DNA of 24,000 nt from Pseudomonadota bacterium (GCA_022572945.1 JACZUY010000007.1:1-24000); one strand, 5' to 3'; numbered from the stretch's first letter, positions 1 through 19,197 are shown. Notes: generated by a model from the sequence alone, not told the origin. Program-made: numbers and translations.

Positions 1-156
1 GCCGATCGTGCCGTGGCCGATGAGCGCGACCCGCGCGCCCAGCTCCGACGCGCGAATGGCCGCGGCAAAGCCGGCCGATCCGGCGCCGATCACCGCCAGG
101 TCGAAGCTCTCGCCGCCGCCGACGGTATCGCGACGGGTATCGGTTCTCTCGCTCAT
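1..156 (-). CDS. merA: Mercuric reductase MerA, first 52 codons only (gene continues past the window start); no N-terminal HMA (NmerA) domain
   Basis: My own minus-strand translation from the ATG at 154-156 gives MSERTDTRRDTVGGGESFDLAVIGAGSAGFAAAIRASELGARVALIGHGTIG. This is the FAD GxGxxG fold and is clearly paralogous (about 80% nt by eye) to the merA fragment at 500-610. An AAGGAA RBS lies just upstream, and the gene sits directly downstream of MerR-type promoter P1. The redox CxxxxC lies outside the window, so the merA call rests on the paralog and on context. Confidence 0.75.
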   Translation of the reverse strand, partial: MSERTDTRRDTVGGGESFDLAVIGAGSAGFAAAIRASELGARVALIGHGTIG

Positions 157-195
157 CTCGGTTCCTTTGCGTCCCCGCTCCTCGTCTCGCCACGA

Positions 196-226
196 TAGAT
201 AGTGCCTGTAGTAACTACAGGTTCAA
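196..226 (-). promoter_or_regulatory. MerR-type promoter/operator P1 (TTGAAC-19 bp-TATCTA) with perfect dyad CCTGTAGT-A-ACTACAGG, driving merA
   Basis: Read on the minus strand: -35 TTGAAC (221-226), a 19-nt spacer (202-220) holding the dyad at 205-221, and -10 TATCTA (196-201). A 19-bp spacer with a centred dyad is the hallmark of MerR-family activated promoters (Tn501/Tn21 PmerT). It aligns with P2 and P3 to give the consensus gCCTgTAcCAaCTACaGGTTCAAGg. Confidence 0.75.
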
Positions 227-661
227 GGCCCATCGGGTAACAAAATCGTGAACCGCGAGCCGCGCTGGCCCCTCGAGATAGGCGATGGTGTTGTAAGCCG
301 GCAGAAGATCGCTGTACTTCGACTGGCGCAGTCCGCTGACCAGCTCGTCCTTCTGGGCGACGAGAGCGCGCCAGTCCTCCAGGTCGGCCCGGCCGCGAAT
401 TCCGGCAAAGCGCGAGGCGGCCTCGGCCTGGTGGAGCGTCTCGGCGGCGCGGATGAGGGTCTTCGAGGGAACGCAGCCGACATTGACGCACGTGCCGCCG
501 ATGGTGCCGTGGCCGATGAGCGCGACCCGGGCGCCAAGCTCGGCCCCCCGGATCGCGGCCGAAAAGCCGGCCGAGCCGGCCCCGATCACGGCGAGGTCGA
601 AGCCTTCGCTCCCGCCCTTCGCGGCTTCCGGGCTGCAATCCGCGGGGCTTCCGCCCATCAC
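215..661 (-). pseudogene. merA: Truncated merA remnant (5' third only, 148 codons): FAD-binding fold plus redox-active disulfide, then loss of homology
   Basis: The ORF reads ...FDLAVIGAGSAGFSAAIRGAELGARVALIGHGTIGGTCVNVGCVPSKTLIRAAE...YLEGPARL, then unrelated residues. Its stop codon (215-217) lies inside the P1 operator dyad. GGTCVNVGCVPSK is the class-I pyridine nucleotide-disulfide oxidoreductase/MerA active site. Full MerA cores are roughly three times longer. The start is ATGA-coupled to the merF stop (658-661). Confidence 0.8.
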
Positions 662-1710: not shown

Positions 1711-2001
1711 CTAGTCGCTCTCGACGAGCTCGGAGGGGAACCCGATCCCGGCGGTCGCCGCGGTCAGCGCGGCCACGTCGACGCGGTCGTCGTCGAACGT
1801 CACCACCGCGGACTGCTCGCGGTACGAGGTCGTCACCGCGACAACGCCCGCGACCCGTTCGAGCGTGCGCTGGACGATATAGGGGCACGTCGCGCAATAC
1901 ATCGGCACGCGCAACGTCACGGTGCGCTCGCGCGCAGCCGCGCCGGGAGCGCCGGCCAGCAACATCGCCGCGAGCGCCAGCGCAAAGAGCCAATGTTTCA
2001 T
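1711..2001 (-). CDS. merP: Periplasmic mercury-binding protein MerP (signal peptide plus HMA domain, CxxC motif MYCATCP)
   Basis: MKHWLFALALAAMLLAGAPGAAA (signal peptide) followed by RTVTLRVPMYCATCPYIVQRTLERVAGVVAVTTSYREQSAVVTFDD...ATAGIGFPS. This parallels Tn501 MerP (TVTLAVPGMTCAACPITVKKAL...REAVVTFDD...ATADAGYPS). There is an ATGA overlap with the upstream gene. Confidence 0.88.
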   Translation of the reverse strand: MKHWLFALALAAMLLAGAPGAAARERTVTLRVPMYCATCPYIVQRTLERVAGVVAVTTSYREQSAVVTFDDDRVDVAALTAATAGIGFPSELVESD

Positions 2002-2276
2002 TTCGTGCTCCCGTCCTCAGAGGTCCAACTATGCCGGCGCGACGTAGGGATACGCCGCCGCCGCAACGCGCCCGCGCCGCGTTTACCGCCGTGGATCAAC
2101 CCATAGGCGAGAACAGCGACGAGGAGGGCGACGCTCGCGGCGAGCACCGGATCAAGCCCGCCAAGCCACGCCCACAACCAACCGATCGCCCCAAGAACAA
2201 CAAAGGGGGCGACGCAGCACAGGATCATGAGCGCCGCGCCACCGGCGATGCCGGCGGTCTTGAGCAATTCTTTCAT
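1998..2276 (-). CDS. Small 2-TM membrane protein with a vicinal Cys pair in TM1 (MerF-like putative Hg transporter paralog)
   Basis: MKELLKTAGIAGGAALMILCCVAPFVVLGAIGWLWAWLGGLDPVLAASVALLVAVLAYGLIHGG... followed by a basic tail. The LCCxxP motif in the first helix is as in MerF/MerT. It lies between the HMA gene and merP, and its stop overlaps the merP ATG (ATGA). The start is taken at the ATG at 2274-2276 rather than the TTG at 2297. Confidence 0.6.
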   Translation of the reverse strand: MKELLKTAGIAGGAALMILCCVAPFVVLGAIGWLWAWLGGLDPVLAASVALLVAVLAYGLIHGGKRGAGALRRRRIPTSRRHSWTSEDGSTK

Positions 2277-2306
2277 CGCATGACCCCAAACAACCAAACG
2301 GCACCG

Positions 2307-2828
2307 CTACTGAATGACCAGTGAGGGGTAACCGTATTTCGCGGTGGCCGCGATCAGAGCGGCCACGGTCGTCTTCGATCGGTCGTACGTGACCACCGCT
2401 GTGCCCTCGCGTCCCGAAACTTTGGCCTCCAGCACGCCCGGAGTCCCGGTGAGCGCCTGGTGCACGAAATACGCGCAGGATCCGCACCACATGCCGTCGA
2501 CCTTGAGCGCCACGGTCTCGAGTGTTGGTTCCTGAGCCGTGGACGGCGCCGTGGACGACGGCGCGGAAGACGACAGAACGCCCGGTGCCGCCGCAATCTC
2601 CGACGTTGTCGGCGCGAACACCCCGAATTCGGCGAGACGGGCTTCAAGCTCTGCCGCTTGGGATGCGGGCGATTCCTCGACGGTGGGTGACGGCGCGGTG
2701 GACGGCGGAGTGCCGGAAACCGCTGCAACCTCGGAGGATGTCGGCGCCAGGACCCCGGATCCAGCGAGATAGGCGCCGATTGCCAAAATAACCGCTCCGG
2801 CTGCTGCGATCGCGTTCACGCGTCTCAT
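2307..2828 (-). CDS. N-terminally anchored (or secreted) heavy-metal-associated (HMA) domain protein with a long Ser/Thr/Pro/Ala linker; MerP-like second metallochaperone
   Basis: It starts with a hydrophobic N-terminus, MRRVNAIAAAGAVILAIGAYLAG. A roughly 90-aa low-complexity linker follows, with an internal repeat (VLAPTSSEVAAVSG... / VFAPTTSEIAAAPG...). The C-terminus is an HMA fold: TVALKVDGMWCGSCAYFVHQAL...GTAVVTYD...ATAKYGYPS. Confidence 0.75.
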   Translation of the reverse strand: MRRVNAIAAAGAVILAIGAYLAGSGVLAPTSSEVAAVSGTPPSTAPSPTVEESPASQAAELEARLAEFGVFAPTTSEIAAAPGVLSSSAPSSTAPSTAQEPTLETVALKVDGMWCGSCAYFVHQALTGTPGVLEAKVSGREGTAVVTYDRSKTTVAALIAATAKYGYPSLVIQ

Positions 2829-2841
2829 TATCGGTTCCTTT

Positions 2842-3270
2842 TCATTCGACCCCGAGCAGGGCAGGCACGGCGTAAGGAAACGCCATGGCCGCGATGACCA
2901 GAACTGTCGAAGACCACAAAACGACCTTGTTGACGCGGTCGATTCCGGGCGCGGCGCAAGCGGCGCCGGACGCGCACTCGTCCGCCTTCGGTTTGCGATA
3001 AACCATATAGAACCCGCCGGCGATGAACCCGGCCGCGGGCACGAAGAAATACCATTTGTAGGGGTAGAGCGCCGTGAGCGTTCCGAGCCACGCGCCGCTC
3101 AGCCCCAGGCTGAACAGCGCCAGAGGCAAGACGCAGCACAACGACACCGCCAGCACGCCGAGGATGCTGCCGCCGGCGAAGACTCTTTTCTTGGTTTCCT
3201 CATCGACAGTGGTATCGGCCCGAGCCAAGCGTGGGACGTACCGGGCTGTCGAAGGATTTTGGTCGGACAT
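2842..3270 (-). CDS. merT: Mercury transporter MerT
   Basis: ...GGSILGVLAVSLCCVLPLALFSLGLSGAWLGTLTALYPYKWYFF...YRKPKADECASGAACA...VLVIAAMAFPYAVP matches Tn501 MerT (ACCLGPLVLIALGFSGAWIGNLTVLEPYRPIF...AACKPGEVCA...). The start is taken at the ATG at 3268-3270 (GGAG RBS upstream, downstream of P2), not at the listed upstream start at 3336, which would lie inside the promoter. Confidence 0.85.
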   Translation of the reverse strand: MSDQNPSTARYVPRLARADTTVDEETKKRVFAGGSILGVLAVSLCCVLPLALFSLGLSGAWLGTLTALYPYKWYFFVPAAGFIAGGFYMVYRKPKADECASGAACAAPGIDRVNKVVLWSSTVLVIAAMAFPYAVPALLGVE

Positions 3271-3301
3271 TGGCACTCCGGTAATCCTCGACATTCTGGC
3301 C

Positions 3302-3332
3302 AATCTAATGCCTATACCAGCTACAGGTTCAA
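3302..3332 (-). promoter_or_regulatory. MerR-type promoter/operator P2 (TTGAAC-19 bp-TAGATT), imperfect dyad CCTATA-N5-TACAGG, driving merT and the operon behind it
   Basis: Minus strand: -35 TTGAAC (3327-3332), 19-nt spacer (3308-3326), -10 TAGATT (3302-3307). It aligns base for base with P1 and P3. Confidence 0.7.
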
Positions 3333-3464
3333 GCATATTTCCTGGCGATAACGAATTCGTGAAGCGACGTATTCGCGCCAGGCGGCCTCGGCGATCACCA
3401 AGGCCACCGAAGTTCCCATGGGGCGGACGTGGACATCACATGAGTCATCCTCTTGCACAAGGTA

Positions 3465-4256
3465 TCAGCGCCGTCCCAGGGACGCGCGGGCGCGATACAT
3501 CGGCAGGAGCATGCGAAAGACCAGCCACCAAAGGACGACGCCCGCGGCGAACAGCGCGAGCAATATCTGCCACGACAAGTGTTCGATCTGGTCGCCCATG
3601 ACGACCATAAGGATGGTCATTGGGAGGATCCCTAGCCCCGTCGCCCAGGTGAATGTGAGCCACGAGATTTTGGTCAGACCCGCCGCGTAGTTGATGAGAT
3701 TAAACGAGATCACCGGCAGGAAGCGGCTCAGAAACAACATGCCGCCGCCCTGGCGCGCCGCCCAGTCGTCGAGCCGCGACAGTTGTTTGTCGGGCACCAT
3801 GACCTCGACAAACGGGCGCCCCAAGAGGCGCGACAGCCCGAACGCGAGATAGGCGCCGAGCATGGCCCCCGTCCAGGTGATCACGGTGCCCCAAAACGCT
3901 CCATAGATCATGCCGTTGGCAAGCGCCACGAACTCGGCGGGAAACGGAATGAACGAATGGACGACCATCAGGCCGATCGACGCGCCAACGCCCCACGGCC
4001 CCCATGACCTCACCAGCTCTTCAAACGCTGCTACCGAGACGCCTTCGTCGCCGAATATCCACATGTCGCCCACGAACACGCCCACGGCCAGGGCGCCGAC
4101 GATCACGATTACGAGGGCGGTGGCGACAAGGCGTTTTCGCGCCAACCAGGCCGATGGCTCGCGTCTCTGTTCGTGCGCCGACGCCGCGGCCCGCCGGTTC
4201 GCCGTTGCTTCCTCGCGCGGGCCTTCGTCGCGCGGGTATGATGAATTTTTGCCCAT
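3465..4256 (-). CDS. TVP38/TMEM64 (DedA superfamily, VTT/SNARE-associated domain) integral membrane protein
   Basis: 263 aa. The charged N-terminus is followed by several TM segments. The characteristic stretch reads ...HSFIPFPAEFVALANGMIYGAFWGTVITWTGAMLGAYLAFGLSRLLGRPFV...FLSRFLPVISFNLINYAAGLTKIS... and is typical of the PF09335 family. I saw no cysteine in it. A GGGAG RBS lies upstream and promoter P3 lies immediately upstream of that. Confidence 0.75.
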   Translation of the reverse strand: MGKNSSYPRDEGPREEATANRRAAASAHEQRREPSAWLARKRLVATALVIVIVGALAVGVFVGDMWIFGDEGVSVAAFEELVRSWGPWGVGASIGLMVVHSFIPFPAEFVALANGMIYGAFWGTVITWTGAMLGAYLAFGLSRLLGRPFVEVMVPDKQLSRLDDWAARQGGGMLFLSRFLPVISFNLINYAAGLTKISWLTFTWATGLGILPMTILMVVMGDQIEHLSWQILLALFAAGVVLWWLVFRMLLPMYRARASLGRR

Positions 4257-4274: not shown

Positions 4275-4305
4275 AACATAAACCCTGTACCAACTACGGG
4301 TTCAA
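4275..4305 (-). promoter_or_regulatory. MerR-type promoter/operator P3 (TTGAAC-19 bp-TATGTT), dyad CCTGTA-N5-TACGGG, in the divergent merR / TVP38 intergenic region
   Basis: Minus strand: -35 TTGAAC (4300-4305), 19-nt spacer (4281-4299), -10 TATGTT (4275-4280). It lies between divergent merR and the TVP38 gene, exactly where the mer operator sits in Tn21/Tn501. A plausible overlapping plus-strand merR promoter has its -10 at CATATT (4308-4313). Confidence 0.75.
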
Positions 4306-4349
4306 GGCATATTTTGAACAAAACCGCCGCAGAAGGATCGTCGTATCGC

Positions 4350-4757
4350 TTGACCATCGGTGAGCTGTCGAAGCGCACCGGCTGCATCATCGAGACGATC
4401 CGCTATTACGAACGCATTGGGGTCATGCCCGCGCCGCCGCGCACCGCCGGCGGTCACCGGATTTACGACCGCGACCATCTCAAGCGGCTCAACTTCGTCC
4501 GCCGCGCCCGCGCGCTGGGGTTCACGCTCGATCAGGTGCGCGGGCTGCTGGCGCTCGCCGACGAGCGCGAAACCTCGTGCGCCGAGGTCGAGAGGCTGGC
4601 GCGCGCCCAGCTCGATCAGGTGCGCGCCCGCATCGACGATCTCGGGCGCATGGAAGGCGTGCTCGACGAGATGGTGGCGCGCTGCGCCGGCGGCAGCGTC
4701 CCCGAGTGCCCGATCCTCGAGGCCCTGTTCGACGGCGGCGACGAGGGCGTGGGCTAG
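4350..4757 (+). CDS. merR: Hg(II)-responsive transcriptional regulator MerR
   Basis: LTIGELSKRTGCIIETIRYYERIGVMPAPPR (MerR-family HTH) ...RETSCAEVERLA...RMEGVLDEMVARCAGGSVPECPILEAL. This aligns with Tn501 MerR HCEEASSLA...[28 protein letters not shown], so the three Hg-ligand cysteines (Cys82/Cys117/Cys126 equivalents) are present. The start is uncertain because there is no in-frame ATG or GTG. TTG at 4350 (AAGGA RBS at 4333) is preferred; TTG at 4314 is the alternative. Confidence 0.85.
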   Translation: MTIGELSKRTGCIIETIRYYERIGVMPAPPRTAGGHRIYDRDHLKRLNFVRRARALGFTLDQVRGLLALADERETSCAEVERLARAQLDQVRARIDDLGRMEGVLDEMVARCAGGSVPECPILEALFDGGDEGVG

Positions 4758-4778
4758 CGACATTGGCGGCGGAAGCGG

Positions 4779-4818
4779 TTGACAGGCGTTGAATCAGTAA
4801 CTACGTTTTTGTAGTTAC
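4779..4818 (+). promoter_or_regulatory. Putative brnA promoter (TTGACA-17 bp-TACGTT) overlapped by the perfect palindrome GTAACTAC-N6-GTAGTTAC
   Basis: TTGACA at 4779-4784, 17-nt spacer, TACGTT at 4802-4807. The 8-bp perfect inverted repeat arms lie at 4797-4804 and 4811-4818, 24 nt upstream of the brnA ATG. This is a typical autoregulatory operator layout for RHH antitoxins. The -10 match is weak. Confidence 0.45.
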
Positions 4819-4841
4819 ATCGAACTGATACCTCCGAGCCT

Positions 4842-5138
4842 ATGAAGAAGGCGGGTTCTAAATCGCTGACCCGGAAGCAGAAGGCGGAGCTCGAGGCGCT
4901 GGCGGCGCTGCCCGACGACCGGATCGACGTGAGCGACATCCCCGAGGTCCGCGATTGGTCGGGCGCCAAGCGGGGCCTTCTCTACCGTCCGGTGAAGAAG
5001 CAGCTCACGTTGCGCGTGGACGCGGACGTCGTCGCGTGGTTCAAGGAGCACGCGCGCGGCGGCCGCGGCTATCAGACCGACATCAACCGCGCGCTTCGCG
5101 AACACGTCGGCCGGCGCGAGAAGCTGGCCGGCCGATAG
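4842..5138 (+). CDS. brnA: BrnA-family (CopG/RHH-like) type II antitoxin, with no cognate BrnT toxin gene
   Basis: MKKAGSKSLTRKQKAELEALAALPDDRIDVSDIPEVRDWSGAKRGLLYRPVKKQLTLRVDADVVAWFKEHARGGRGYQTDINRALREHV matches the BrnA_antitoxin pattern (D..ID.SDIPE......RPVK.Q.T.R.D.DV..WFK....GYQT.IN..LR..V). Only 84 bp separate it from the merR stop, so there is no room for the upstream brnT normally present. Confidence 0.8.
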   Translation: MKKAGSKSLTRKQKAELEALAALPDDRIDVSDIPEVRDWSGAKRGLLYRPVKKQLTLRVDADVVAWFKEHARGGRGYQTDINRALREHVGRREKLAGR

Positions 5139-5148
5139 CCCGGCGGCT

Positions 5149-5226
5149 TGCGCCGGCGGCAGCGTCCCCGACTGCCCCCTCCTCGACGCACTGTTCGACG
5201 GCGGCGACGAGGGCGTGCGCTCGTAA
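5149..5226 (+). pseudogene. merR: Displaced 3'-terminal remnant (last 25 codons plus stop) of a second merR
   Basis: It translates to CAGGSVPDCPLLDALFDGGDEGVRS*, compared with intact merR 4683-4757, CAGGSVPECPILEALFDGGDEGVG*. There are about 6 mismatches in 73 aligned nt. No upstream merR sequence precedes it; homology stops at about 5148. Confidence 0.85.
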
Positions 5227-5415
5227 AGGGTGGGCTTGGCTGGGTCTCGACCAGCGCCGCCGATGGCCGCTCGGTGTCAGAAGTGGACCAAGGTTGGCTC
5301 GGATTGCTTCTCGCGGTTCAGCTCGTCGAGAAACGATCGGACACCATCGCGGCCCACCCCGGCGGCATTGCCAGAGCAGAATGCCCGCTCGTCCGGGCCC
5401 CCGCGACGCGTAATA

Positions 5416-5580
5416 CCGGATTTCAAAATGAATGGATCAGGTTTGAAATCCGGAGCCTGCGCCCCCTTTGATCGCAATAATTGCGGGCTGCCGCTTATGC
5501 GGCCAGGTTTTGATCAATGTAACGTTTGGCCTGCGTGGCGTTTGAACGCAGCAATTTCACAAAAATTGTGACATTGCGTA
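5416..5580 (-). repeat. Mosaic intergenic element, copy A (inverted relative to copies B, C and D)
   Basis: Hairpin CCGGATTTCAAA/TTTGAAATCCGG (5416-5427 / 5442-5453). Core ...CCCTTTGATCGCAA..., small hairpin GCCGCTTATGCGGC, and stem CTGCGT/ACGCAG. Hairpin GCAATTTCACAA/TTGTGACATTGC (5551-5577). It is close to 90% identical by eye to the reverse complement of 19036-19197, and it ends 5 nt past the tldD stop. Confidence 0.85.
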
Positions 5581-5585
5581 TGAGC

Positions 5586-7019
5586 CTACACCGCGGCGCC
5601 GCCGACGGTGAGGCCGTCGATCAGGAGCGTCGGCAGGCCGACGCCGACGGGCACGGTCTGGCCGTTCTTGCCGCAGGTGCCGATGCCGGGGTCGAGCGCC
5701 ATGTCGTTGCCGATCGCCTTGATCCGCGTCAGCACGTCGGGGCCGTTGCCGATCAGCGACGCGCCCTTGACCGGGGCACCGACCTTTCCGTCCTCGATGA
5801 GGTACGCTTCGGAAGCCGAGAACACGAACTTGCCCGAGGTGATGTCGACCTGGCCGCCGCCGAAGTTGACCGCATAGAGCCCGCGCTTGACGCCGGCGAT
5901 GATCTCCTCGGGGTCGCGATCGCCCGACTCCATGAAGGTGTTGGTCATGCGCGGCATGGGCGCGTGCGCGAAGCCCTGGCGGCGGCCGTTGCCGGTCGGC
6001 TTCATGCCCATCAGCCGGGCGTTCTGGCGGTCGTGCAGATAGCCGGTGAGAACGCCGTCCTCGATCAGCACCGTGCGTTCGGTGGGCGTGCCCTCGTCGT
6101 CGACCGTGAGCGAGCCGCGGCGGTCCGCAATCGTGCCGTCGTCGATGACGGTCACGCCCGGCGCGGCGACGCGCTCGCCCATGAGCCCGGCGAAGGCCGA
6201 GGTCTTCTTGCGGTTGAAGTCGCCCTCGAGGCCGTGGCCGATCGCCTCGTGCAACAGGATCCCCGGCCAGCCCGGCCCCAGCACGACCTGCATCTCGCCC
6301 GCCGGCGCGGGCACCGATTCGAGGTTCACCAGCGCCTGCCTGAGCGCCTCGTCGACCTGGGCCTGCCAGTGCCCGGGCTCGAAGTAGGCGTGATACGAGC
6401 CGCGCCCGCCGGCGCCGTCCGAGCCCGATTCCATGTGCTCGCCATCGGCCACGACGACGTTGACGTTGAGCCGCACGAGCGGGCGCACGTCGCCCACCCG
6501 CGCGCCGTCGGCGCGGACGATCTCGACCGCCTGCCACTCGCCCAGGAGCGACACCATGACCTGGCGGACGCGCGGATCGCGCCCCCGGGCGTAGGCGTCG
6601 ATGTCGGCGAGCAGCTTGACCTTGGCGGCGAAGTCGACCTCGTTCAGCGGGTTGGCGTCGTCGTAGAACGCCTGGTTGGTGCGCGCGGGGCCGGCGCCCG
6701 CCGCGCCCCCGTGGCCGGTGCGCACCGCCTGCACGGTTCGCGCCGCGCGGCGCATCGCCGCTTCCGACAGCTCGGAGGCGTGGGCGTACCCGGTCGCCTC
6801 GCCCGAGACCGCGCGCAGGCCGAAGCCCTGCGTGGTGTCGAAGCTGGCGTTCTTGAGCTTGCCGTCGTCGAAGGCGAAGCTCTCGGATTGGCGGTACTCG
6901 AGGAACAGCTCGCCGTCGTCGGCGCCGGCGAGCGCCTCGGCGACGATCCCCTCGACGCGGGCGCGGTCGAGACCGGCGCGGGTGAAGAACAGCTCATCGG
7001 CGCTCGGATAGGCGGTCAT
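5586..7019 (-). CDS. tldD: Metalloprotease TldD
   Basis: ...ELFLEYRQSESFAFDDGKLKNASFDTTQGFGLRAVSGEATGYAHA...LLHEAIGHGLEGDFNRK (HExxxH zinc motif)...TCGKNGQ.VPV. It is co-linear with E. coli TldD. The ATG at 7017-7019 is preferred; a GTG at 7031 is possible. Confidence 0.9.
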   Translation of the reverse strand: MTAYPSADELFFTRAGLDRARVEGIVAEALAGADDGELFLEYRQSESFAFDDGKLKNASFDTTQGFGLRAVSGEATGYAHASELSEAAMRRAARTVQAVRTGHGGAAGAGPARTNQAFYDDANPLNEVDFAAKVKLLADIDAYARGRDPRVRQVMVSLLGEWQAVEIVRADGARVGDVRPLVRLNVNVVVADGEHMESGSDGAGGRGSYHAYFEPGHWQAQVDEALRQALVNLESVPAPAGEMQVVLGPGWPGILLHEAIGHGLEGDFNRKKTSAFAGLMGERVAAPGVTVIDDGTIADRRGSLTVDDEGTPTERTVLIEDGVLTGYLHDRQNARLMGMKPTGNGRRQGFAHAPMPRMTNTFMESGDRDPEEIIAGVKRGLYAVNFGGGQVDITSGKFVFSASEAYLIEDGKVGAPVKGASLIGNGPDVLTRIKAIGNDMALDPGIGTCGKNGQTVPVGVGLPTLLIDGLTVGGAAV

Positions 7020-7089: not shown

Positions 7090-7229
7090 GTTCACCTTTA
7101 CACAATAAAGGTGAACCGCGTTCAATCGCCACGCGGGCTTCCGCCGCATAAGCGGCGGCCCCCATTTGTTGCGATCAAAGGAGGCGCGGGCTGGCGTAAT
7201 CCGAACGAATGGAATCGTTCGGATTACGC
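7090..7229 (+). repeat. Mosaic intergenic element, copy B (in the divergent tldD / ctaC intergenic region)
   Basis: Hairpin GTTCACCTTTA-cacaa-TAAAGGTGAAC (7090-7116). Stem CCGCGT..ACGCGG. Hairpin CCGCCGCataaGCGGCGG. Core CCCCCATTTGTTGCGATCAAAGGAGGCGCGGGCTG. A 15-bp perfect hairpin GCGTAATCCGAACGA-atggaa-TCGTTCGGATTACGC (7194-7229). The module order is the same as in copy C, but both terminal hairpins have different sequences. Confidence 0.8.
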
Positions 7230-19035: not shown

Positions 19036-19197
19036 ACGCAATGTCACAAACCTTGTGACATTGCTGCGTTCAAACGCCACGCAGGCCAAACATTACATTG
19101 ACCAAAACCTGGCCGCATACGCGGCGGCCCCCAATTCGTTGCGATCAAAGGGCGCGCGGGCTGCGGATTTCAAACTGACCAATCAATTTGAAATCCG
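19036..19197 (+). repeat. Mosaic intergenic element, copy C (fills the convergent GNAT / yqgE intergenic region)
   Basis: 12-bp perfect hairpin GCAATGTCACAA-acc-TTGTGACATTGC (19038-19064), starting 4 nt after the GNAT stop. Stem CTGCGT..ACGCAG. Hairpin GCCGCatacGCGGC. Core CCCCCAATTCGTTGCGATCAAAGGGCGCGCGGGCTG. Hairpin CGGATTTCAAA-12 nt-TTTGAAATCCG (19164-19197), ending 10 nt before the yqgE stop. Confidence 0.85.

What the first reader, a model, noticed from the sequence alone, without database searches (positions are those of the whole stretch)
4683..5226. An orphan brnA antitoxin module is bracketed by about 75-bp direct repeats of the merR 3' end
The last 24-25 codons of merR occur twice in direct orientation: 4683-4757 as part of the intact gene, and 5149-5226 as an isolated remnant. 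The two copies have about 6 mismatches in 73 nt, and both keep the two C-terminal Hg-ligand cysteines in frame. Between them lie only a promoter/palindrome and a 98-aa BrnA-family antitoxin gene, with no brnT toxin and no recombinase. An intact gene end, an insert and a displaced older gene end is the classic footprint of integration into the 3' end of a gene. It is also what a collapse between two tandem merR-containing modules would leave. Either way a lone RHH antitoxin has been fixed immediately downstream of merR. There it could act as a transcription factor, or as an anti-addiction module against BrnT encoded elsewhere.
Basis: partly seen in the sequence, partly recalled or inferred. Interest (0 to 1): 0.65.

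Follow-up and report, generated by a model that had tools for sequence, protein, structure and literature searches.

The report
Decayed brnTA cassette inserted into merR
A small toxin-antitoxin cassette once inserted into the end of a mercury-regulator gene, duplicating about 75 bases of it, and this strain has since lost the toxin gene; this is an ordinary kind of decay, but the insertion footprint had so far been described mainly for restriction-modification genes.

Summary
An 80-nt direct repeat (4676-4755 and 5142-5221, 89% identical) brackets a promoter/palindrome and a BrnA-family gene (4842-5138). No brnT occurs anywhere in the 24 kb.

The interpretation needs correcting. Metagenomic relatives 96-97% identical carry a complete brnT-brnA operon between the same two repeats. 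The window, and two other assemblies with the identical junction, have lost about 262 nt that held brnT. The orphan antitoxin is therefore a secondary deletion product, not an inserted orphan.

Un-inserted merR alleles end in ...GVRS* and run straight into the sequence that follows the window's second copy. That copy is therefore the original merR end, and the insertion created a new TAG stop.

A cassette whose BrnA is 87% identical sits at an unrelated gene (FemAB-like). It has the same footprint, a 58-62-nt duplication spanning the stop codon, and an empty site was found for it too. Flanking repeats are enriched around this cassette family (9 of 71 real cassettes against 1 of 135 control positions).

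The closest known phenomenon is "insertion with long target duplication", described for restriction-modification modules. No integrase is present. The insertion mechanism remains inferred.

This is a new member of a known kind, of moderate interest.

The parts
4314..4757 (+). MerR-family metal-responsive regulator gene (TTG start, 147 aa). It is divergent from a VTT/DedA-merT-merP-merB-merF-merA cluster.
   Evidence: Pfam MerR_1, MerR-DNA-bind and MerR. The best NCBIfam model is TIGR02051 MerR at 123 bits, below its 150.85-bit cut-off. Coordinates follow the 147-aa gene called in L001-L004 and P0121.
4676..4755 (+). Repeat copy 1: the last 24-26 codons of the intact merR.
   Evidence: It aligns to the single copy in the empty-site loci L152 and L153.
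4755..4757 (+). New TAG stop codon at the left insertion junction (...GGGCT|AGCGACATT). MerR now ends GVG* instead of GVRS*.
   Evidence: Comparison of copy 1, copy 2 and the empty-site sequences.
4779..4818 (+). Cassette promoter/operator. It has a -35 TTGACA (4779-4784), a -10-like TACGTT (4802-4807) and a two-box palindrome GTAACTAC-N6-GTAGTTAC (4797-4818).
   Evidence: Read. The same two-box motif lies upstream of the first cassette gene in 63 of 80 family loci and in 0 control segments. The simple promoter scan did not call it, because the -10 matches only 3 of 6 positions. Its function is inferred.
4819..4841 (+). brnT deletion scar. Positions 4824-4835 replace L001 3453-3726, and homology resumes 6 nt before the brnA ATG. 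The GAGGAG Shine-Dalgarno sequence present in relatives is lost.
   Evidence: BLAST block boundaries and sequences. The junction is identical in L155 and L156.
4842..5138 (+). brnA: an intact 98-aa BrnA-family (DUF4415) antitoxin gene, now without its toxin partner.
   Evidence: PF14384 at 2.8e-14. It is 97-99% identical to the BrnA of brnTA-bearing relatives.
5142..5226 (+). Repeat copy 2: the displaced original 3' end of merR, including its original stop (TCG TAA, 5221-5226).
   Evidence: It is contiguous with the downstream flank, as in the un-inserted alleles.
5227..5271 (+). Original merR-downstream flank, homologous to the sequence that directly follows merR in the empty-site loci L152 and L153.
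   Evidence: BLAST of window 5149-5271 against L152 1820-1942 gives 83%. The aligned sequences are shown.

Best explanation
This is the decayed remnant of a mobile brnT-brnA type II toxin-antitoxin cassette.

Step 1 (shown by comparison). A minimal cassette of promoter/operator, brnT and brnA, about 0.74 kb with no mobility gene, was inserted 5 nt before the end of the original merR reading frame. The insertion duplicated the last 73-80 nt of merR. The upstream copy stayed joined to merR and acquired a new TAG stop at the junction. The downstream copy is the displaced original end.

Step 2 (shown). In the lineage of this window about 262 nt were deleted. This removed brnT and the brnA Shine-Dalgarno sequence but left the promoter, the operator palindrome and an intact brnA.

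Step 3 (inferred from the general behaviour of type II antitoxins). The orphan BrnA, if still translated, binds the two-box palindrome and represses its own promoter. It has no toxin to neutralise in cis. It is most likely a tolerated remnant, because losing the toxin is harmless while losing the antitoxin first is not. It could also neutralise a related BrnT encoded elsewhere.

Step 4 (inferred, weakest). The insertion was not integrase-mediated. It belongs to the 'insertion with long target duplication' class known for restriction-modification modules. Plausible routes are repair of a staggered break with fill-in, or homology-facilitated illegitimate joining. A CCGGCGGC microhomology lies at the right junction.
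For: Relatives L001-L004 are 96-97% identical and have the order merR, brnT (96 aa, PF04365), brnA, merR 3' remnant, tldD. The window aligns to them in two blocks. Window 4824-4835 stands in for L001 3453-3726.

The brnT-less allele has an identical junction in two further assemblies, L155 and L156.

MerR homologs P0124 and P0125 (95-96% identical) end in GVRS*. Their loci L153 and L152 hold the repeated sequence once, continue into a flank homologous to window 5222-5271, and contain no BrnA or BrnT.

There is a second, independent event. In L006 (BrnA 87% identical) the cassette is bracketed by a 58-62-nt duplication spanning the stop codon of a convergent FemAB-like gene. L157 is its empty site. 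L159-L161 share the L006 insertion.

Flanking direct repeats of at least 40 bits occur at 9 of 71 cassettes against 1 of 135 pseudo-cassettes in the same loci (Fisher p = 3.5e-4).

Toxin loss is common in the family. Of 80 loci, 59 have full-length brnT, 12 have partial or frame-split brnT, and 9 have none.

The operator motif is conserved in 63 of 80 loci.

No integrase or transposase was found among the window ORFs scanned.

The literature describes long (46-423 bp), variable target duplications flanking restriction-modification genes. These often span a start or stop codon and leave the target gene intact (PMC2853133; PMC3874152).
Against: The empty-site loci L152 and L153 are only about 94% identical in the mer region and diverge about 50 nt downstream of merR. 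They are therefore proxies for the un-inserted state, not the direct ancestor.

An 'empty' site could also arise by precise excision between the repeats, so the direction of the event is inferred.

The two copies differ by 8-11%, mostly at synonymous or conservative positions. The remnant differs between the window and L001 by about 11%, against about 3% in the flanks. This fits recombination or gene conversion with other merR alleles, or a donor-derived copy, at least as well as a simple duplication followed by drift.

The mechanism is not demonstrated. Only two events have empty sites.

Two other repeat-flanked loci (L067, L081) carry halves that look like the 3' end of tRNA-Pro, which is typical of integrase att sites.

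Expression and function of the orphan BrnA are untested, and its Shine-Dalgarno sequence is gone.
Confidence: 0.72

Rival explanations
1. A larger integrative element entered the merR 3' end by site-specific (tyrosine-integrase) recombination, carrying its own copy of the gene end. It later eroded until only brnTA, and then only brnA, remained between attL and attR, as in an integrase-less CIME-like element.
For: The layout of intact end, insert and displaced end is what such elements leave. In L067 and L081 the flanking repeats are 47-49-nt sequences, 100% identical, that read like the 3' half of tRNA-Pro(CGG) and carry a shared element-end sequence. The differences between the two merR copies are conservative, as expected if one copy came from another host's merR.
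Against: No integrase is present in the insert or among the ORFs scanned across the 24 kb. The insert is equally minimal in all seven assemblies. A cassette 87% identical at the protein level sits at an unrelated target, in the opposite orientation, with a different duplication length. The two targets share only a 10-mer, with an empirical chance of about 0.05. ARAGORN and Rfam found no tRNA in L067 or L081.
Confidence: 0.12
2. The bracket arose by unequal or illegitimate recombination between two mer modules, a resident operon and an incoming diverged one. One of them had brnTA downstream of its merR, and the event left a merR 3' fragment behind.
For: The mer region of the window holds other duplications involving diverged mer sequences. 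There is a truncated merA followed by a second merA start (1-120 versus 497-616, 83% identical). A 792-nt extra merF-like plus HMA module is bracketed by an imperfect duplication of the merT 3' end. There are three merO-like operators. The remnant carries allele-like C-termini, GVRS in the window and EEQGVCS in L001, that resemble functional alleles such as P0124 and P0135.
Against: The remnant is contiguous with exactly the flank that follows merR in un-inserted alleles. No second merR 5' part is seen in any relative. The same footprint occurs at a non-mer gene and has its own empty site.
Confidence: 0.1
3. One reading: brnA was acquired and fixed as a lone antitoxin gene next to merR, for a regulatory or anti-addiction role.
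For: The window, L155 and L156 carry only brnA, with an intact ORF and operator.
Against: Close relatives have brnT between the same promoter and brnA. The window retains the last 26 nt of brnT, which overlap the brnA start, together with a diverged brnT leader. In the family, brnA is normally preceded by brnT (59 of 80 loci).
Confidence: 0.03
4. The repeat is an assembly artefact.
For: None found.
Against: The same repeats and junctions are present in at least seven independent assemblies from different samples.
Confidence: 0.01

Closest known systems
Insertion with long target duplication, described for restriction-modification gene complexes (Nobusato et al. 2000, Gene 259:99; Furuta, Abe and Kobayashi 2010, PMC2853133)
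   Same: A small addiction-type module with no mobility gene lies between long direct repeats (46-423 bp in that work, 58-80 bp here). The repeats correspond to a single copy in a related genome with an empty site. They often span a stop or start codon, so the target gene survives. Repeat length varies from event to event.
   Different: The cargo here is a type II toxin-antitoxin pair, not a restriction-modification system. BrnT is reported to be an RNase (my own knowledge of the family). The DNA double-strand breakage by the cargo that was proposed for restriction-modification modules therefore cannot be invoked here. In the papers I could search, this mode is stated for restriction-modification systems and not for type II TA systems.
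BrnTA type II toxin-antitoxin system (Pfam PF04365 BrnT_toxin and PF14384 BrnA_antitoxin)
   Same: The relatives have the toxin gene first, a roughly 20-nt overlap with the antitoxin gene, and a palindromic operator over the promoter. The window's BrnA passes the Pfam threshold.
   Different: The window has lost brnT, so it is no longer a TA system. It is an orphan antitoxin with its operator.
Decaying chromosomal TA loci and orphan or anti-addiction antitoxins (reviewed in PMC2654758)
   Same: Chromosomal TA systems lose their addictive properties through mutation and deletion. Toxin loss with antitoxin retention is seen in about a quarter of this family's loci.
   Different: No anti-addiction activity has been tested here, and no cognate toxin is known in the rest of the genome.
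Integrase-less att-flanked elements (CIME-like) and islands at the 3' ends of tRNA or protein genes
   Same: The insert is flanked by direct repeats of the target gene's 3' end, and the target gene is kept intact.
   Different: There is no integrase. The targets of near-identical cassettes are unrelated. The duplication length varies (58-80 nt), and the insert is only a promoter plus two genes.

Membership tests
BrnA antitoxin family (PF14384 / DUF4415) | Match to the family HMM above the gathering threshold | tested here: met
   53.7 bits against a 26.1-bit cut-off, E = 2.8e-14. No NCBIfam model matched.
BrnTA type II toxin-antitoxin module | Adjacent, co-oriented brnT (PF04365) toxin gene | tested here: not met
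   No BrnT is found in the window by tblastn or by family HMM on six frames (best E = 4.5). brnT is present in relatives L001-L004 and L006.
BrnTA type II toxin-antitoxin module | Autoregulatory operator upstream of the operon | tested here: inconclusive
   The two-box palindrome is conserved in 63 of 80 loci and retained at 4797-4818. Binding was not tested.
Hg(II)-responsive MerR (NCBIfam TIGR02051 equivalog) | Score at or above the equivalog cut-off | tested here: not met
   123 bits against a 150.85-bit cut-off. CueR (115.8 bits) and CadR (114.7 bits) score nearly as well. MerR-family membership itself is met.
Hg(II)-responsive MerR | Divergent mer transport and detoxification genes, and a merO-type operator | tested here: met
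   MerT, an HMA/MerP-like protein, MerB and MerF are present in the window, and MerA is present in relatives. A merO-like palindrome lies at 4278-4306.
Insertion with long target duplication (criteria of Furuta et al. 2010) | Direct duplication of the target longer than 30 bp | tested here: met
   73-80 nt in the window and 58-62 nt in L006.
Insertion with long target duplication (criteria of Furuta et al. 2010) | Insert shorter than 20 kb with no mobility gene | tested here: met
   The insert is about 0.39 kb in the window and about 0.65-0.74 kb in relatives. It holds only brnT and brnA.
Insertion with long target duplication (criteria of Furuta et al. 2010) | An empty site in a related genome where the repeated sequence is single-copy and aligns with both repeats | tested here: met
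   L152 and L153 serve for merR and L157 for the FemAB-like gene. The merR empty sites are about 94% relatives, not the same strain.
Insertion with long target duplication (criteria of Furuta et al. 2010) | Cargo is a restriction-modification system | tested here: not met
   The cargo is a type II TA pair.
Site-specific integrative element | An integrase or recombinase gene in or beside the insert | tested here: not met
   None was found in the insert or among the larger ORFs of the 24-kb window.

The most novel reading that the evidence does not exclude
brnTA-type toxin-antitoxin cassettes, and possibly other small modules in this lineage, spread by a host-mediated, integrase-independent 'insertion with long target duplication' that lands at gene ends. 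The other candidate modules are the extra merF-like/HMA pair and the VTT gene in the same mer locus, each of which is bracketed by a junction duplication. If so, the process is general and does not depend on DNA cleavage by the cargo, contrary to what was proposed for restriction-modification systems.
Probability: 0.3. Interest if true: 0.6.

Novelty: new member of a known kind. Interest (0 to 1): 0.4.

Why it matters
How two-gene toxin-antitoxin cassettes move between chromosomal sites without any mobility gene is still poorly understood. This locus gives two filled-site and empty-site pairs showing that a brnTA cassette landed at gene ends with 58-80-bp target duplications. That footprint was described for restriction-modification modules and attributed there to their DNA-cutting activity. 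An RNase-type TA pair leaving the same footprint points instead to a host repair or recombination route. The locus also documents, in natural populations, the expected order of TA decay, with the toxin lost first and the antitoxin and operator retained. For annotation it explains a puzzling merR pseudo-fragment and a lone antitoxin.

Tried and rejected
1. The JGI metagenome scan with MerR returned only relatives of 65% identity or less and gave no empty site. The empty sites came from the protein database plus contig look-ups.
2. An exact look-up of the window's BrnA found nothing on record.
3. ARAGORN and Rfam found no tRNA or tmRNA in L067 or L081. Reading the repeat as the 3' half of tRNA-Pro(CGG) is my own reading of the sequence.
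4. I looked for a recombination core common to the two targets. The only shared element is the 10-mer TCGAGGCCCT, with an empirical chance of 0.04-0.06, so it is not convincing.
5. I looked by eye for terminal inverted repeats or conserved cassette ends. Homology between cassettes starts at about the -35 and ends near the brnA stop, and I saw no terminal repeats.
6. tblastx of left against right flanks added no further old duplications beyond those seen at the DNA level.
7. The sigma-70 pattern scan did not call the cassette promoter.
8. Rfam gave no hit for the window, including the REP-like element.
9. The plasmid collection has many BrnA genes but none closer than 61% identity, and it holds no relative of the merR-brnA arrangement.
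10. Three-way substitution counts over the 73-nt repeat, taken by eye from the sequences (copy 1 versus copy 2 = 6 differences, copy 1 versus empty site = 4, copy 2 versus empty site = 5), cannot distinguish a true duplication from a donor-derived copy.
11. Extra look-ups for a third insertion site (P0015, P0025) only recovered the FemAB-like site again.

Full report
**1. The observation.** The window contains one strong direct repeat in this region, 4676-4755 and 5142-5221 (80 nt, 89% identical). Its core, 4683-4755 versus 5149-5221, has 6 mismatches in 73 nt. Chance matches between unrelated flanks of the same size reach only about 24 bits at the 99th percentile, whereas this pair scores 97.6 bits. 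Copy 1 is the end of a MerR-family gene (Pfam MerR_1, MerR-DNA-bind, MerR). Copy 2 translates in its own frame to ...CAGGSVPDCPLLDALFDGGDEGVRS*. Between the copies lie TTGACA (4779-4784), the palindrome GTAACTAC-N6-GTAGTTAC (4797-4818) and a 98-aa ORF (4842-5138) that passes the Pfam BrnA_antitoxin threshold. No brnT exists in the 24 kb. tblastn with the nearest BrnT finds nothing. A 48-sequence BrnT HMM searched against all six frames gives a best E-value of 4.5, against 4.8e-45 for a positive control.

**2. Context.** merR (4314-4757) is divergent from a VTT/DedA gene, merT, an HMA protein, merP, merB and merF. Downstream lie tldD on the minus strand, the cox/cta cluster and housekeeping genes. 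No integrase or transposase was found among the ORFs scanned. The regulator scores best against NCBIfam MerR (123 bits) but stays below the equivalog cut-off (150.85 bits), and CueR and CadR score almost as well. Calling it Hg-responsive rests on its mer neighbours, not on the model.

**3. Relatives show that brnT was lost.** BrnA has hundreds of close homologs in metagenomes. Contigs carrying 97-99% identical BrnA (L001-L004) are 96-97% identical to the window at the DNA level. They read merR, brnT (96 aa, PF04365), brnA, merR 3' remnant, tldD. The window aligns to them in two blocks. Window 4824-4835 takes the place of L001 3453-3726, a net loss of about 262 nt that removes brnT except for its last 26 nt, which overlap brnA. 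The deletion also removes the GAGGAG Shine-Dalgarno sequence in front of brnA. Two further assemblies from other samples (L155, L156) are 99.5% identical to the window and have exactly the same junction. The brnT-less form is thus a real allele circulating in nature. It is a secondary product, because what was inserted was a complete brnTA operon. Across 80 non-redundant loci of this family, 59 have full-length brnT upstream of brnA, 12 have partial or frame-split brnT, and 9 have none. Toxin loss with antitoxin retention is therefore common. Some frame-splits may be sequencing errors in MAGs.

**4. The un-inserted state of merR.** MerR homologs at 95-96% identity (P0124, P0125) end in ...GGDEGVRS*, like the window's copy 2 and unlike the intact gene, which ends in ...GVG*. 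Their contigs (L153, L152) hold the repeated sequence once. They then continue TCATAAAGATGGCCGTGGCTGGGCTTTCGGCCAGC, which is homologous to the sequence after copy 2, TCGTAAAGGGTGGGCTTGGCTGGGTCTCGACCAGC. They contain no BrnA or BrnT. Copy 2 plus its flank is therefore the original merR end. The cassette sits 5 nt before the end of the original reading frame. The left junction...GGGCT|AGCGACATT, creates a new TAG stop. At the right junction the cassette ends 3-10 nt after the brnA stop. There the motif CCGGCGGC occurs in both the cassette end and merR, a possible microhomology (family D2; sequence). One caveat applies. L152 and L153 are about 94% relatives whose sequence diverges about 50 nt beyond merR, so they are proxies for the empty site rather than the direct ancestor. 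In addition, an empty site could in principle arise by excision between the repeats.

**5. A second, independent event.** In L006 the BrnA is 87% identical and the context is unrelated (CbiM and FemAB-like N-acyltransferase genes). The cassette is again bracketed by a direct repeat, 5592-5649 and 6379-6436 (58 nt, 91%). One copy is the 3' end of the convergent FemAB-like gene. The other is a remnant on the promoter side, so the cassette lies in the opposite orientation relative to its target. Homologs of that gene end in ...FRKG* as in L006. L157 (92% protein identity) is the empty site. Its gene end...CGCAAGGGGTAGTAC|CAGCGGTCATTATGATCG..., runs straight into the flank that follows the L006 remnant. 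The duplication (58-62 nt) spans the stop codon. L159-L161 are further assemblies of this same insertion.

**6. How general the footprint is.** I compared 600-nt left and right flanks of the cassette in 71 non-redundant loci that have both flanks. Nine have direct repeats of at least 40 bits, against 1 of 135 pseudo-cassettes placed elsewhere in the same loci (Fisher p = 3.5e-4). The cases are heterogeneous.
- L044: a 46-nt repeat spans the start of paaA.
- L048 and L055: the repeats are fragments of groEL or of its terminator region.
- L030: the repeat is a 176-nt internal fragment of an aminotransferase gene.
- L062: the repeat is 397 nt, occurs in three copies, and includes the 3' end of a DUF2887 gene.
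- L067 and L081: the repeats are 47-49-nt identical sequences that I read as the 3' half of tRNA-Pro(CGG) next to a shared element end. This is the classical integrase signature, although ARAGORN and Rfam report nothing.

More than one route evidently places these cassettes between repeats.

**7. [quoted passage not shown] That mode was described for restriction-modification modules. The authors note that the repeats often span a start or stop codon, which leaves the target gene intact. They also note that such repeats allow amplification, and they suggest that double-strand breakage by the cargo is involved (PMC2853133; PMC3874152). In the papers I could search, this mode is not stated for type II TA systems. 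A TA cargo that does not cut DNA would point to a host process instead. I consider two routes compatible with the data:
- a staggered break filled in around captured DNA, which would be a true duplication;
- integration of donor DNA that already carried a homologous gene end, either Campbell-type or homology-facilitated illegitimate recombination using the CCGGCGGC microhomology.

The substitution pattern does not decide between them. The copies differ at mostly synonymous or conservative positions. Copy 1 is no closer to copy 2 than to the empty-site allele, by my count from the sequences. The remnant differs by about 11% between the window and L001, against about 3% in the flanks, in patches that resemble other natural merR alleles (GVRS versus EEQGVCS). 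That suggests gene conversion or allelic recombination. Integrase-mediated integration of a larger element that later eroded is less likely here. There is no integrase, the insert is minimal in all assemblies, and near-identical cassettes occupy unrelated targets in opposite orientations. The targets share only a 10-mer, expected by chance with p of about 0.05.

**8. What the locus does now.** The two-box palindrome is the family's conserved upstream motif. It is found in 63 of 80 loci and in none of the control segments. TTGACA lies at -35 distance in the window and in many relatives. By analogy with type II antitoxins, BrnA should repress this promoter, but this is inferred and untested. With brnT gone there is nothing to neutralise in cis. 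With the Shine-Dalgarno sequence gone, translation may be weak. brnA itself shows only 1-3 amino-acid differences from brnTA-bearing relatives, too few to test for selection. No terminator-like site separates merR from brnA, so read-through from merR is possible. The most economical reading is a tolerated remnant of a selfish cassette. An anti-addiction role against a related BrnT elsewhere cannot be assessed from 24 kb.

**9. Verdict.** It is partly wrong: the module was not inserted as an orphan, and there is no evidence for classical integration. The locus is a new example, with a new kind of cargo, of a known but little-studied insertion footprint, combined with ordinary TA decay.

Noticed in passing
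window 2029-2892: Relative to L001 and L002 (96-97% identical), the window carries an extra 792 nt (2065-2856) between merP (1711-2001, minus strand) and merT (2842-3336, minus strand). The extra segment encodes a MerF/MerT-like 99-aa ORF (1998-2297) and a 173-aa HMA protein (2307-2828). Its junctions share an imperfect duplication of about 26-36 nt from the merT 3' end. This is the same kind of footprint as at merR, but with a non-TA cargo.
   Followed up: partly
window 199-227, 3305-3333, 4278-4306: There are three merO-like operator/promoter sites, CCTGTA-N5-6-CTAC(A/G)GGTTCAAG, and no others in the 24 kb. The VTT/DedA gene (3465-4256) sits between the second and third. The more distant relative L154 has merT directly beside merR without that gene.
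   Followed up: partly
window 1-661: merA appears truncated (ORF 215-661, minus strand, 148 aa, ending in a stop). It is followed by a merO-like site and by the start of a second, diverged merA that runs off the left edge of the window. Positions 1-120 are 83% identical to 497-616.
   Followed up: partly
window 5454-5556 (+), ~7100-7192 (-), ~19040-19130 (-); L157 2260-2340; L006 5480-5545: A dispersed intergenic repeat contains a GCCGCTTATGCGGC hairpin followed by AGGTTTTG and ...GCGTTTGAACGC. It has three copies in the window, two of which flank tldD. A copy also lies 50-260 nt from both brnTA insertion sites, including the empty site L157. It has no Rfam match. It may be a REP-like or terminator element.
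   Followed up: partly
L013, L014, L015, L022, L025, L033, about 60-80 nt upstream of the brnTA -35: A conserved motif, GTAAATAGTCATT...(G/A)CAAATCAAT, is shared by six loci from different alphaproteobacterial MAGs at the same distance from the cassette promoter. I have no explanation for it.
   Followed up: no
L062 414-2272; L028 1916-4267: L062 has three copies of the target-gene 3' fragment, and the repeat unit begins inside the brnA 3' end. This suggests tandem amplification of the unit made of cassette plus target end. L028 carries two 5'-truncated brnT plus brnA units about 1.9 kb apart.
   Followed up: no
window 2551-2774: The N-terminal half of the 173-aa HMA protein contains an internal direct repeat, 2551-2642 and 2683-2774 (92 nt, 73% identical). 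It encodes a low-complexity linker rich in Ala, Pro, Ser and Thr.
   Followed up: no
window 5416-5453: A perfect 12-nt inverted repeat, CCGGATTTCAAA-N14-TTTGAAATCCGG, lies in the intergenic region between the merR remnant and tldD. It is conserved in L001. The fold is not significantly more stable than shuffled sequences (z = -1.66).
   Followed up: partly
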